This document shows positions 28,941-32,091 of a stretch of 34,670 nt of DNA, in pieces. Source of the DNA: an uncultured Methanospirillum sp. (lineage in GTDB: Archaea; Halobacteriota; Methanomicrobia; Methanomicrobiales; Methanospirillaceae); assembly GCA_964515765.1 (NCBI GenBank), contig CAZEWE010000002.1, positions 1 through 34,670 on the forward strand. Reading direction: 5' to 3'. The notes below the pieces were generated by a model. That model ran no database searches. It was given only the letters and a program-made list of their open reading frames with translations, and was not told the DNA's origin. Position 1 is the first letter of the stretch. Each line of letters begins with the position of its first letter. Position numbers and translations under genes: made by a program.

Positions 28941-30527
28941 GTGCTGAGGCAATACTCTTTGATACTTTTATGTTTCCTTGCAATACTCCCGATGGCAGTT
29001 TATGGTGCATCACCAGGAGATATTTTGAGAAATCAGGTTTTTGGTCTTCCGGAAGGAGCCGAATGGGGGTATGGCCTTGATACCTCATCTGATGGAAATA
29101 CGACTGTATGTGGGGTTGCATATCCGGATCCATCTATTGACCTGGGACACCTGGGGAATGGCGATGCCTGGGTCATCAGGTTTGATAGGAACGGAACTAT
29201 CCTCTGGGAGAAACTTTTCGGCGGAAATGAAACAGATTATGCATTATCTGTCCGGAATCTCCCGGATGGCGGGGCAGCGGTTATCGGTACCACCGGATCA
29301 TACAACGGGGATGTGACCGGGTACCATGGAAACGGGGATATGTGGTTTATCAATCTCGGACCAGATGGGAATATCCGCGGGGATCGTGCCCTTGGTGGCA
29401 GTCTGACCGATGAAGGATCGGATCTTGTACTGATGCCGGACGGAGGCTATGTCCTATGCGGATATACCATGTCATCAGATGGATTTGCCAGACGACAACT
29501 CGGGGGGGGAGATCTCTGGCTTATCAGACTGGACCGGAATGGAACCGTTCTGTGGCAACAGACCTATGGCGGGAGCAGGCGGGACAGCGGGACCAGTATC
29601 ATCCAGACGAAAGACAATTCCCTCGTAGTCTGTGGGAATACTAACTCAACAGACGGGATGGTTTCAGGGAACCGGACCAGCAGTGATGTCTGGGTGATAA
29701 AGACAGATCTGAACGGGACAGTGATTTGGGAGCGCTCCTTTGGTGGTTCAGGACTTGAATGGGGGCATTCGGTTATCGAACTTACATCAGGAGATCTCAT
29801 GGTTGCGGCAGTCACCGCATCAGGAGATGGTGATGTCGGGAAAAACCATGGAGCAGGGGATGTCTGGCTGATGCGGATTACTCCTGATGGAACCCTCGTT
29901 TGGAAACAGACCTATGGTGGAAGCTTTAGTGACAATGTCTGGAAACTTGAGCCATCACCGGGAGGAGGAGCATACCTGGTTGGTGACAGTTACTCGGTTG
30001 ATGGTCACTTTACCGGCAATCATGGAGAATCAGATCTGCTGATTGCTGAAGTGGATGGTGACGGAAACCTGCTCTGGTACAGACAGATAGGTGGATCATC
30101 TGTTGACCGTGGATCCTGGGTGAAACGCACCAATACCGATACCCTGATGATCACCGGTATGACCGCATCATCAGACGGTGATATATCTGGAGACCATTCA
30201 AGTGGTGATCTCTGGATCCTTGAGGTGGAAGGGAGTAAAGTACAGCCAGTGTCTGATCCTGAACCGCAGCCAGCGGTGACCGTTCCGGTAGAACCTGCAA
30301 TCAGTCCGCTTGGTGGAGATGGCCCGGTTCCGACCGATCCTGACGGTGATGGCAGATATGAGGATATGAACGGAAATGGCGTGATGGACCTGCAGGATCC
30401 AACGGTGTTTTTCACGCATTTCGCCTGGCTGCAGAGTCAGGGATATGTATTAACATTTGATTTTAATGAGAACGGAGCCCTGGATTTGAGCGATGTCCAG
30501 GCATTGTTTACGGAGATTCAATCATGA
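28941..30527 (+). CDS. Secreted 7-repeat beta-propeller protein with C-terminal dockerin-like (double Ca-loop) domain
   Basis: Signal peptide; seven ~58-aa repeats (GG...D...GD.W....D.NG...W); Pro-rich linker; DPDGDGRYEDMNGNG..D..D and FDFNENG.LD.SD; GTG 28941 after GGGGAG (alternative ATG 28926). Confidence 0.8.
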   Translation: MLRQYSLILLCFLAILPMAVYGASPGDILRNQVFGLPEGAEWGYGLDTSSDGNTTVCGVAYPDPSIDLGHLGNGDAWVIRFDRNGTILWEKLFGGNETDYALSVRNLPDGGAAVIGTTGSYNGDVTGYHGNGDMWFINLGPDGNIRGDRALGGSLTDEGSDLVLMPDGGYVLCGYTMSSDGFARRQLGGGDLWLIRLDRNGTVLWQQTYGGSRRDSGTSIIQTKDNSLVVCGNTNSTDGMVSGNRTSSDVWVIKTDLNGTVIWERSFGGSGLEWGHSVIELTSGDLMVAAVTASGDGDVGKNHGAGDVWLMRITPDGTLVWKQTYGGSFSDNVWKLEPSPGGGAYLVGDSYSVDGHFTGNHGESDLLIAEVDGDGNLLWYRQIGGSSVDRGSWVKRTNTDTLMITGMTASSDGDISGDHSSGDLWILEVEGSKVQPVSDPEPQPAVTVPVEPAISPLGGDGPVPTDPDGDGRYEDMNGNGVMDLQDPTVFFTHFAWLQSQGYVLTFDFNENGALDLSDVQALFTEIQS

Positions 30528-31501
30528 AATATTCACCAATATGGTTCATCCTGATTATGCTGACCGGAGTTATCATTTCAGGAGTTCAGGGCGCAACAGT
30601 ATCAGCAGGGTCCGCAACCCTTTCCCCAGGAAATGCAGGGACAGTACATATCATGCTGGACTCAGCTTCAACAGGTATTTCCGGATATCAGATGACCGTG
30701 CAGTCAGACAATGCAGCAGTCGTTTCAGTGACCGGAGTAACGTTTCCTTCCTGGGCAGCCCTTTCAGAGGCAGTGCCTGGTGACGGGGGATCGTATGCTC
30801 TCCGGGCCATTGATCTGAACAGTGGAGTTGAAGCGGGTGCAACAGAGGTCACTCTTGCCACCCTCACAGTTCAGGCTACGGGAAGCGGAACTGCACAGAT
30901 TACCATTCAGAACCTTCAGATCGATGATGATGCAGGAAATCCCCTTCAGGCAGAAGCAAAGAGCGGGACGGTAACGGTATCAGGAGGCGCACCTCCGGCA
31001 GAACCATCCACCCAGGAGATACAGGTCAACCTGCAGACCGGATGGAATCTCTTCAATATCCCCATGCAGCCTGCTGCCGGATTTGAGTATGCAGACATCT
31101 TCAAAAATGTTCAGAGTGCAGGTCATTCAATCCTGACGTACGATGGTTCAGCCGGATGGATAACCATTGGAAAGGGCGACCGGCTCACACCCATGACCGG
31201 ATACTGGATATATACAACCAGTCCGGTCACCATCCCTCTGACCGTCCAGGGAACTCCAACCGGGATGAAAAACCTGAACACGGGATGGAACCTTGCAGGG
31301 ATCAGCGGCACCACGACGCAGTCTGCTGAAACTGCCCTGTCAGGACTCGCATCATGGTCTTATGTTGTCTCCTACGACTCTGCCCGGCAGCAGTACCGTG
31401 ATGCAGGTATAAAAGGCGGACAAAGCCAGATTACCCTTTCACCAGGAGAAGGGTTCTGGATTCATCTTGATGCACCGGGCACGCTCAGCCCAGGAGCATA
31501 A
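30524..31501 (+). CDS. Secreted cohesin-like domain protein with C-terminal duplicated L..GWNL domain
   Basis: Signal peptide; ~130-aa beta-rich domain (GISGYQMTV, VTFPSW, VTLATLTV, IDDDAG); two L.TGWNL...G(Y/F)WI repeats; ATGA overlap with dockerin gene. Confidence 0.72.
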   Translation: MKYSPIWFILIMLTGVIISGVQGATVSAGSATLSPGNAGTVHIMLDSASTGISGYQMTVQSDNAAVVSVTGVTFPSWAALSEAVPGDGGSYALRAIDLNSGVEAGATEVTLATLTVQATGSGTAQITIQNLQIDDDAGNPLQAEAKSGTVTVSGGAPPAEPSTQEIQVNLQTGWNLFNIPMQPAAGFEYADIFKNVQSAGHSILTYDGSAGWITIGKGDRLTPMTGYWIYTTSPVTIPLTVQGTPTGMKNLNTGWNLAGISGTTTQSAETALSGLASWSYVVSYDSARQQYRDAGIKGGQSQITLSPGEGFWIHLDAPGTLSPGA

Positions 31502-31563
31502 AAGAAACCCTATATTTTTATACTCCCTTTTCTTAGGACATATTCAGAATGGAGACCTGGAAC

Positions 31564-32091
31564 ATGAATTACAAAACTGGCGTATGCGTCCTGTTTATTA
31601 TTCTCCTGGCCGCGGGTGTATCGGCAATTCCCCCACTGCCATACGAATTCTATGGGAATGTATCAATCAATGAAACACCCGTCGTGGCAGGAACTATAAT
31701 CATCGCGAAAGTGAACGGAACTGAAGTTGGAAACATCACCACTACTGCTGTCGGTGCGTATGGCGGGGCAGGGACATTTGACCGCCGTCTGGTAGTCAAT
31801 GGAGCTGAGGACCAGATTGGTGAGTACATCACCTTCTGGATTGGGGATAAGCAGGCTGCCCAGAAAGTCAAACTCTATGCAGGCGAGTCACAAAAACTTG
31901 ATCTGACCTTCATCCCGGGAAAAGAGGGAAGCATAGATGCATCAGTCACCCCATCCCAGTCTGGAACCATTGCCAATGTCCCGACCGATGAAGAGACTCC
32001 GGTACCAACAGAGACACAGACAAAGGCACCACTCTTTATCGCCCCGATTGCAGCCGGACTTGCATTATTCATTCTTGGACGCAGGGAATAA
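31564..32091 (+). CDS. Small surface protein with PPLPYEFYG domain, Thr/Pro linker and C-terminal membrane anchor
   Basis: Signal peptide; IPPLPYEFYGNV.I...P..AGT.I.A; TKAPL-hydrophobic-GRRE tail; ATG 31564 after GGAG. Confidence 0.75.
   Translation: MNYKTGVCVLFIILLAAGVSAIPPLPYEFYGNVSINETPVVAGTIIIAKVNGTEVGNITTTAVGAYGGAGTFDRRLVVNGAEDQIGEYITFWIGDKQAAQKVKLYAGESQKLDLTFIPGKEGSIDASVTPSQSGTIANVPTDEETPVPTETQTKAPLFIAPIAAGLALFILGRRE

What the first reader, a model, noticed from the sequence alone, without database searches (positions are those of the whole stretch)
28941..32091. Candidate archaeal cohesin-dockerin surface-display system: propeller-dockerin, cohesin-GWNL adaptor, membrane anchor
Seen: three co-oriented secreted proteins. 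The first is a 7-repeat beta-propeller ending in two Ca-loop motifs (about 30330-30524). The second is translationally coupled by an ATGA overlap and has a cohesin-like beta-sandwich (about 30593-30980) plus a duplicated L.TGWNL...G(Y/F)WI domain, but no membrane anchor. The third is a small PPLPYEFYG-domain protein and the only one with a C-terminal TM/basic anchor. Established: cohesin-dockerin pairs assemble clostridial cellulosomes, and adjacent cohesin/dockerin genes of unknown role occur in Archaeoglobus. Inference: the dockerin binds the cohesin, and the GWNL domain binds the anchored FYG protein as a second, uncharacterised interaction pair. That would give a three-tier, non-cellulolytic scaffold on a methanogen surface, perhaps for adhesion or syntrophic contact.
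Basis: partly seen in the sequence, partly recalled or inferred. Interest (0 to 1): 0.85.

Follow-up and report, generated by a model that had tools for sequence, protein, structure and literature searches.

The report
Proline-docking surface adaptor in methanogens
Three neighbouring genes of a methane-making archaeon encode a predicted chain of exported proteins in which a cohesin-dockerin pair is linked to a second, undescribed docking pair (a tryptophan-rich tag predicted to grip a proline-rich protein tip), which would be a widespread way for archaea and some bacteria to hold enzymes at the cell membrane.

Summary
Observation confirmed. The three genes form a cassette, complete in 20 of 24 other Methanospirillum genomes searched: a propeller-dockerin, a cohesin-GWNL protein and a membrane-tailed FYG protein. 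The cohesin call rests on fold evidence from a 71%-identical homologue; the dockerin is below Pfam's cut-off; their binding was not modelled. The GWNL-FYG pair is well supported. GWNL ends 14 unanchored proteins of this genome and has no Pfam family or clear solved-fold match. In 301 genomes of the phylum, 54 of 138 listed GWNL matches have an FYG start 72-353 nt downstream, whereas dockerin genes are followed by cohesins. ESMFold2 scores the pair 0.81 against a best control of 0.03, with conserved tryptophans on the partner's N-terminal PxxP. Where FYG is missing, the next gene often still starts with PxxP (26 of 46; background 19 of 350), so the ligand is likely the proline tip. The middle protein is likely an adaptor between two docking codes. 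Adhesion or syntrophy is unsupported: the anchor's short stalk suggests a place under the S-layer. The scan noted the same GWNL pair before on other DNA (e1-9865294). Nothing is tested in vitro.

The parts
28941..30527 (+). ORF A: exported seven-bladed beta-propeller with C-terminal dockerin-like domain (start GTG 28941 likely; open frame from 28902)
   Evidence: conserved in the genus
29037..30236 (+). Seven ~58-residue propeller repeats, SBBP/CylK-like; function not known
   Evidence: NF047494 E 3e-13, far under its cut-off; CylK 7fh8 E 5e-22
30300..30524 (+). Dockerin-like domain; Ca loops at 30363-30398 and 30459-30494, extra DxDxDG at 30336
   Evidence: PF00404 E 0.074 for this copy, 18 of 19 alignment members match at E<=1, best 1.4e-5; PDB dockerins from E 6.5e-4, EF-hand proteins from E 5e-6
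30524..31501 (+). ORF B: exported adaptor, cohesin-like domain plus GWNL domain, no membrane tail; overlaps A by ATGA; cluster of an 86%-identical homologue holds M. hungatei JF-1 Mhun_3047
30593..30982 (+). Cohesin-like beta-sandwich
   Evidence: Atlas on homologue P0007 (71% identical): 28 of 30 feature hits PF00963, TM 0.83 to cohesin models; Pfam direct: 1 of 19 members, E 6.4e-5
31013..31498 (+). GWNL domain: duplicated ~80-residue unit with conserved Trp cluster (W11, W49, W65, W92, W149 in domain numbering); predicted receptor pocket for PxxP
   Evidence: AF2 pLDDT 95.2; complex; conservation
31549..32091 (+). ORF C: exported FYG-domain protein with Pro/Thr spacer and C-terminal membrane tail
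31627..31917 (+). FYG domain, predicted prealbumin/transthyretin-like beta-sandwich, starting at the inferred mature N-terminus
   Evidence: AF2 pLDDT 89.7; best Z 7.2, rmsd 2.7, 85 aligned; transthyretin-like rows Z 5.7-6.5
31630..31641 (+). N-terminal PxxP motif (P2-P5), predicted ligand of the GWNL pocket
   Evidence: lowest-error contacts; P2 and P5 0.97 conserved; motif enrichment
32023..32088 (+). Hydrophobic segment plus RRE; shaped like a PGF-CTERM tail but without PGF
   Evidence: no NCBIfam match (six genus-type orthologues also none)

Best explanation
The three genes encode a predicted three-link tether on the outer face of the membrane: C is likely held by its C-terminal hydrophobic tail, its N-terminal PxxP tip is predicted to sit in the tryptophan pocket of B's GWNL domain, and B's cohesin likely captures A's calcium-binding dockerin. 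B would thus convert between two docking codes. The GWNL-PxxP pair is the general system: GWNL is a C-terminal tag on many unrelated exported proteins (subtilases, a papain-family protease, PKD arrays) that would dock, mostly in trans, on a few membrane-tailed proteins whose mature chain starts with PxxP, usually followed by the FYG sandwich. Shown: sequence features, gene order, family distribution, motif enrichment. Predicted: folds and the GWNL-FYG interface. Inferred: signal cleavage just before the tip, dockerin-cohesin binding, trans docking, and location. In Methanospirillum the short stalk makes the space under the S-layer the likelier site, so the role is more likely retention of envelope enzymes than cell-cell adhesion.
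For: Complex prediction: ipSAE 0.81 (runs 0.82, 0.81, 0.80), best of 3 controls 0.03; that mark was reached by 116 of 157 solved complexes and 2 of 215 mismatched pairs (counts hold only roughly with my own alignments); runs agree in 100% of contacts, partner pLDDT at least 92. Neither domain had a PDB sequence match at E<=0.001, so a pass from memory of a like complex is less likely. GWNL interface columns are more conserved than the rest (0.60 vs 0.45; W11, W65, W92, W49, W149, Y43 are among the top 15). Same 301 genomes: GWNL in 131, FYG in 97, both in 87; 54 of 138 listed non-own GWNL matches have an FYG start 72-353 nt downstream on the same strand (36 of 69 genomes), none on the opposite strand within 2.5 kb. 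Control: of 31 dockerin-ending genes, 17 have an exported next gene, 10 starting with cohesin, 0 with FYG, 1 with PxxP; of 128 GWNL-ending genes, 99 have an exported next gene, 53 FYG, 0 cohesin, 70 PxxP; 26 of the 46 without FYG still have PxxP; own-genome background 19 of 350. Loci fetched after the idea: 10 of 20 non-FYG next genes have PxxP. L244's next gene is only signal, PPxPP, Pro/Thr stalk and membrane tail. Chloroflexota: FYG in 20 of 151 genomes; of their 20 best loci 10 have a GWNL-ending gene just upstream and 4 have GWNL fused directly before FYG. Tandem GWNL-FYG units in one Cloacimonadota protein. GWNL is C-terminal in 145 of 150 top hits; none of 14 own GWNL proteins has a membrane tail. 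Subtilases of this genome end in GWNL (6) or in a dockerin (1). An independent two-cohesin-GWNL fusion precedes an FYG anchor in another family (L092).
Against: No binding was measured. The paired alignment was built from adjacent genes, and A6 was built partly from the loci counted, so the count of 53 FYG is partly by construction (one search used the earlier, mostly own-genus models; the PxxP count uses no FYG model). Genomes are kin, so counts overstate independence; one own-genus locus (L043) is in the 128. 44 genomes had GWNL without FYG, and the wider model found FYG in only 12 of those 44; G038 and G185 (99% complete, GWNL E about 1e-58) have none. 29 of 128 GWNL genes have no exported next gene, and in this genome only B is followed by an N-terminal PxxP-FYG anchor. 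The FYG interface as a whole is not more conserved than the rest (0.44 vs 0.48). About half of the out-of-sample non-FYG partners lack PxxP and look like divergent sandwiches with one proline. Pro/Thr stalks are common in anchors (only 32 tailed proteins in the background, 2 with PxxP). A's dockerin and B's cohesin miss Pfam cut-offs.
Confidence: 0.7

Rival explanations
1. GWNL is a glycan- or envelope-binding module. Its exposed tryptophans would bind sugars on glycosylated Pro/Thr stalks, the S-layer or the sheath, and the neighbouring tailed genes are simply co-regulated surface proteins.
For: Trp-rich surfaces are typical of carbohydrate-binding modules (own knowledge). GWNL occurs in genomes where no FYG was found (32 of 44) and on many orphan genes. 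Peptide-only partners run straight into Pro/Thr/Gly stalks. GWNL is most expanded in the sheathed genus (9-20 matches a genome).
Against: The complex model puts P2, L4 and P5 on the conserved tryptophans with 0.8-1.1 A expected error. The next gene is specifically FYG/PxxP, never cohesin, and always on the downstream side. One of 31 members had a weak carbohydrate-binding Pfam match (CBM_25, E 0.83).
Confidence: 0.13
2. GWNL-PxxP contact is real but transient: an export, folding or maturation step in which the tailed protein acts as a chaperone or hand-over receptor and the tagged cargo is then released or the tag removed, like a C-terminal sorting domain.
For: Many tags to few receptors (14 against 3 N-terminal PxxP-FYG proteins). 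Strict C-terminal position. Bacterial look-alikes sit in proteins with T9SS tails.
Against: Partners co-vary locus by locus and often come as dedicated gene pairs. B has no cargo other than a cohesin, which makes sense as a lasting link. Multi-FYG scaffold-like proteins exist.
Confidence: 0.1
3. Only the dockerin-cohesin link is functional; GWNL and FYG are neighbours by descent from an ancestral fused unit and no longer bind, or A's domain is a plain EF-hand pair and B's sandwich a spacer.
For: Cis GWNL-FYG fusions exist in bacteria. The best PDB sequence hits of the dockerin profile are EF-hand proteins. Pfam cut-offs are missed.
Against: The cargo upstream and the whole anchor downstream are exchanged while adjacency and PxxP persist. 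Complex score and interface conservation. Dockerin-then-cohesin order recurs in 10 of 17 control loci with an exported next gene.
Confidence: 0.07

Closest known systems
Non-cellulosomal cohesin-dockerin pairs of archaea (Archaeoglobus fulgidus; ANME), as summarised in PMC9012536 section 32 (read whole section)
   Same: C-terminal duplicated tag on exported cargo, beta-sandwich receptor on a neighbouring gene, no cellulases; the A-B link is likely of this kind.
   Different: Here the cohesin is not anchored itself but fused to a second tag. GWNL shows no profile likeness to the dockerin-like domain, nor FYG to the cohesin-like domain (hhalign probability 0.2% and 1.7%); GWNL lacks Ca loops and is predicted to read a proline tip.
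Adaptor scaffoldins of cellulosomes (e.g. Ruminococcus flavefaciens ScaC; recalled, not from a call)
   Same: A small protein with one receptor and one tag that converts one docking specificity to another.
   Different: Known adaptors convert between cohesin-dockerin types; B would convert between two unrelated module families, and the cargo is a propeller, not a glycoside hydrolase.
PGF-CTERM / archaeosortase A anchoring (TIGR04126)
   Same: Pro/Thr spacer, motif, hydrophobic helix, basic tail; an archaeosortase-family gene is in the genome; FYG anchors L057 and L096 pass the PGF-CTERM cut-off.
   Different: C lacks the PGF motif and matches no sorting-signal model; it may be an uncleaved membrane anchor.
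Eukaryotic polyproline-recognition domains SH3, WW, EVH1, GYF (recalled)
   Same: Aromatic residues predicted to cradle a PxxP motif.
   Different: Extracellular, prokaryotic, about 160 residues with a two-fold repeat; no such fold among listed matches; the ligand is mostly at a mature N-terminus.
CylK beta-propeller (PDB 7FH8) and SBBP-repeat propellers
   Same: Sequence-level match of A's propeller, E 5e-22.
   Different: A has only the propeller, then a dockerin; the match covers CylK residues 281-654 and not its N-terminal part; no catalytic role is claimed.

Membership tests
Dockerin (PF00404) | Two 12-residue calcium-binding loops in a duplicated segment, each followed by a helix-like stretch | tested here: met
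   loops at residues 488 and 520; Asp/Asn positions invariant in 19 sequences; helices inferred from sequence only
Dockerin (PF00404) | Score over the Pfam cut-off | tested here: not met
   13.7 bits against 22.9 for this copy; 18 of 19 members match at E<=1, best 1.4e-5; one own-genome paralogue passes with its neighbours
Dockerin (PF00404) | Calcium-dependent binding to a cohesin | not tested
Cohesin (PF00963) | Cohesin beta-sandwich fold | tested here: met
   on homologue P0007 (71% identical), residues 24-154: TM 0.83 to models named cohesin; 28 of 30 feature hits PF00963; predicted models on both sides
Cohesin (PF00963) | Score over the Pfam cut-off | tested here: not met
   no match for this copy; 1 of 19 members E 6.4e-5; no own-genome match
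Cellulosome | Multi-cohesin scaffoldin carrying dockerin-tagged carbohydrate-active enzymes | tested here: not met
   B has one cohesin; two cohesin-like domains in the genome; no glycoside hydrolase among A and the 3 of 4 other dockerin proteins scanned
PGF-CTERM / archaeosortase A substrate | PGF motif before the helix | tested here: not met
   C has APL at that place; no TIGR04126 match
PGF-CTERM / archaeosortase A substrate | C-terminal hydrophobic helix and basic cluster; archaeosortase in the genome | tested here: met
   TIGR04178 E 4.5e-20 (subtype not determined)
PGF-CTERM / archaeosortase A substrate | Cleavage and lipid attachment | not testable with these tools
   needs experiment
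Polyproline-recognition domains (SH3, WW, EVH1, GYF) | Aromatic pocket that binds PxxP | tested here: inconclusive
   predicted by the complex model and motif counts; not measured
Polyproline-recognition domains (SH3, WW, EVH1, GYF) | Shared fold | tested here: inconclusive
   not among listed rows; best Z 4.7, rmsd 2.9, 65 aligned
T9SS C-terminal sorting domain (PF18962) | Profile match to the sorting domain | tested here: not met
   0 of 31 GWNL members match it at E<=1; in Atlas rows it is a separate domain of the same proteins

The most novel reading that the evidence does not exclude
GWNL is a large, unnamed prokaryotic extracellular polyproline-recognition domain with an unsolved fold. 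With N-terminal PxxP tips exposed by signal-peptide cleavage it forms a second universal surface-display code, parallel to cohesin-dockerin and unrelated to it, used by methanogens, ANME-type and halophilic archaea and by Chloroflexota, with adaptors such as B joining the two codes and multi-FYG proteins acting as scaffoldins.
Probability: 0.5. Interest if true: 0.9.

Novelty: new variant of a known kind. Interest (0 to 1): 0.8.

Why it matters
How archaea keep proteases and large PKD proteins at the cell when these have no membrane tail is largely open. A tag found in 131 of 301 sampled genomes of the phylum and in 7,385 clusters at E<=1e-10, with a short predicted ligand, would assign a location and a partner to thousands of unannotated proteins. 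It makes a direct peptide-binding test possible in cultured M. hungatei or Methanosarcina-type hosts. It would also give a docking pair orthogonal to cohesin-dockerin for designed enzyme scaffolds, with a natural adaptor between the two.

Tried and rejected
Family scans of whole A, B and C: no cohesin, dockerin or sorting-signal match. GWNL and FYG alignments: no Pfam family in more than 2 members; no PDB sequence match at E<=0.001 for GWNL, FYG or the cohesin profile. Fold searches: GWNL best Foldseek E 0.031 and best Z 4.7, FYG best E 0.002 and Z 7.2; weak or missing matches do not show a new fold. Homology of GWNL to dockerin and FYG to cohesin: rejected. Promoter/terminator scan: 3 and 3 sites, as in shuffles; a sigma-70 scan does not suit archaea. 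Expression: four RNA runs laid as contigs; one 2,409-nt contig spans 29696-32104 and a second study's contig ends at 32101, but neighbours are covered too and no DNA run was laid, so transcription is not shown. Literature: 8 searches; 0 papers for Mhun_3046/3047/3048, 0 for GWNL/GWN motif strings, 0 GWNL occurrences among the 20 listed; supplements of PMC11641113 (1 PDF) and PMC6242892 (1 file) do not name these loci. Peer 2009 and Haft 2012 were not held and not read; either may list these genes. Subscription journals are mostly outside the library. Adhesion/syntrophy: no evidence found. CylK-like enzyme: not claimed, only the propeller matches. The viral fold library, metagenome scans and two protein searches were not used.
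Full report
Observation. The window lies in a 2.86 Mb, 88.6% complete genome. Named relatives with the same three genes are Methanospirillum hungatei, M. purgamenti and M. stamsii, and the cluster of an 86%-identical homologue of B holds M. 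hungatei JF-1 Mhun_3047, an unannotated protein.

Dockerin and cohesin. Whole-protein scans gave no such family. Cut to domains, the dockerin-like part matches PF00404 in 18 of 19 aligned sequences at E<=1, but this copy scores 13.7 bits against a cut-off of 22.9; its profile finds both EF-hand proteins and cellulosomal dockerins in the PDB. The cohesin-like part matches PF00963 in 1 of 19, but for a 71%-identical homologue 28 of 30 Atlas feature hits are cohesins and the model aligns to cohesin models at TM 0.83. Across the phylum, 10 of 17 dockerin-ending genes with an exported next gene are followed by this cohesin type (31 genes examined). PMC9012536 (passages and section 32 read) states that archaeal pairs have been shown to bind and that ANME carry many. 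I therefore take A-B binding as likely; it was not modelled. The genome has 5 dockerin-like and 2 cohesin-like domains.

GWNL is a general tag. It ends 14 proteins of this genome, none with a membrane tail. Of the 12 others scanned, 6 are subtilases, 1 a papain-family protease, 3 carry PKD domains, 1 DUF3821 and 1 nothing known; a seventh subtilase ends in a dockerin instead. The profile finds 23,091 cluster representatives at E<=0.001 and 7,385 at 1e-10; the domain is C-terminal in 145 of the top 150. It has no Pfam family. The model is confident (pLDDT 95.2) and has no clear solved match. FYG is predicted as a prealbumin-like sandwich. Neither is related to dockerin or cohesin.

Gene grammar. 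In one draw of 301 genomes of the phylum GWNL was found in 131, FYG in 97, both in 87. Crossing the two match lists (each cut at 150 rows; own genome left out), 54 of 138 GWNL matches have an FYG start 72-353 nt downstream on the same strand, about the length of a gap plus a signal peptide, in 36 of 69 genomes; none has one on the opposite strand within 2.5 kb. The pattern held in 20 of 29 best loci and 16 of 20 distant loci that I chose from the weaker hits; most partners end in a membrane tail and 2 of 15 proteins scanned pass the PGF-CTERM cut-off. In Chloroflexota FYG was found in 20 of 151 genomes; of the 20 best loci, 10 have a GWNL-ending gene just upstream, 4 have GWNL fused before FYG and 6 show neither. 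A Cloacimonadota protein carries three detected GWNL-FYG units in cis. Dockerin genes are never followed by FYG and GWNL genes never by cohesin. Kin are not independent, so these counts are not a statistical test.

Complex. With paired 58-row alignments ESMFold2 gave 0.81 against a best control of 0.03; the mark was reached by 116 of 157 solved complexes and 2 of 215 mismatched pairs, roughly applicable here; the runs agree in 100% of contacts with partner pLDDT of at least 92. The model supports binding and does not show it. The surest contacts join W65, W49, W11, W92, L41 and S39 of GWNL to residues 2, 4, 5 and 7 of FYG. GWNL interface columns are more conserved than the rest (0.60 vs 0.45); FYG's are not (0.44 vs 0.48), except P2 and P5 at 0.97 and G86.

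The ligand is likely the proline tip. 44 genomes had GWNL without FYG, and a wider model found FYG in only 12 of them. Reading those loci, the next gene is often an exported, membrane-tailed protein that starts with PPxP-like residues and has no sandwich; one is only signal, PPxPP, stalk and tail (L244). With a uniform rule, PxxP lies within 22 residues of the signal's hydrophobic core in 70 of 99 exported genes after GWNL (128 examined), 26 of the 46 without FYG, 1 of 17 after dockerins and 19 of 350 exported-looking proteins of this genome; in loci fetched after the idea, 10 of 20. The other half look like divergent sandwiches with one proline. Two 99%-complete genomes with strong GWNL have no FYG found (G038, G185) and were not searched for peptide-only anchors.

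Mechanism and place. The best reading is a chain: tail of C in the membrane, tip of C in B's GWNL pocket, B's cohesin on A's dockerin, with most other GWNL proteins docking in trans on three N-terminal PxxP-FYG proteins and perhaps on multi-FYG proteins. PMC11641113 (passages and its one supplement) gives a 12-nm space between membrane and S-layer held by 50-residue spacers, 5-10 A pores and a sheath outside. C's spacer is about 35 residues, so the dock probably lies under the S-layer, unless at cell ends. That is inference, and it weakens adhesion or syntrophic contact. A's function stays open; its propeller resembles CylK's.

Known or new. The A-B link is likely a new member of archaeal cohesin-dockerin pairs. 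The GWNL-PxxP pair works like them but is not a member. I found no description in 8 searches (listings and abstract starts only, except the papers named); two key papers were not held. The proline-tip result and the cohesin adaptor are not in the lines shown of it. Names for adaptor scaffoldins and polyproline domains are recalled. Verdict: real, conserved and probably an undescribed docking system; interest 0.8.

Noticed in passing
L010:3-5436 (G000:C99), L014:3019-8073 (G000:C26:6018-11072): Scaffoldin-like proteins with 3-4 FYG repeats. The four repeats in the protein that also ends in GWNL all lack PxxP; those in the two proteins without detected GWNL mostly keep it (5 of 6; C99:3-2321 is cut by the contig end). 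The C26 protein also has a propeller like A's.
   Followed up: partly
P0067, P0111: Proteins with an N-terminal PxxP-FYG and a C-terminal GWNL could chain head to tail; untested.
   Followed up: no
P0030 (Ca. Cloacimonadota): GWNL and FYG-like domains fused in tandem with an arginine-rich linker between them, a possible cleavage site after which the halves could stay bound.
   Followed up: no
G273, G085, G230: At least 19 dockerin matches each and no GWNL or FYG match, while Methanospirillum has 9-20 matches to B, nearly all GWNL, and this genome only 5 dockerins: lineages seem to expand one tag or the other.
   Followed up: no
L016:1018-1905 (G000:C337): A second adjacent dockerin and cohesin gene pair in the own genome.
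   Followed up: partly
L092:2543-4756: Two Pfam cohesins fused to GWNL, followed by an FYG anchor, in another family: a second adaptor of B's type.
   Followed up: partly
window:31013-31498: The predicted interface uses mainly the first half of the two-fold repeat; a second pseudo-symmetric site, as in dual-binding dockerins, is possible.
   Followed up: no
window:32116-33291: Glutaredoxin fused to a thioredoxin-reductase-like domain directly after C.
   Followed up: no
window:14736-15797 (- strand): 353-aa protein with partial likeness to the MEMAR_RS02690 S-layer glycoprotein family, E 2.6e-18, far under the cut-off.
   Followed up: no
window:23263-28767: Other envelope genes nearby: PKD protein, M13 peptidase, a carboxypeptidase-regulatory-like small protein and a TPR membrane protein; no GWNL, FYG, cohesin or dockerin match in them.
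   Followed up: partly
L071, L076, P0169: A subfamily with GWNL near the N-terminus and a cysteine-rich, calcium-loop-like C-terminal end.
   Followed up: no
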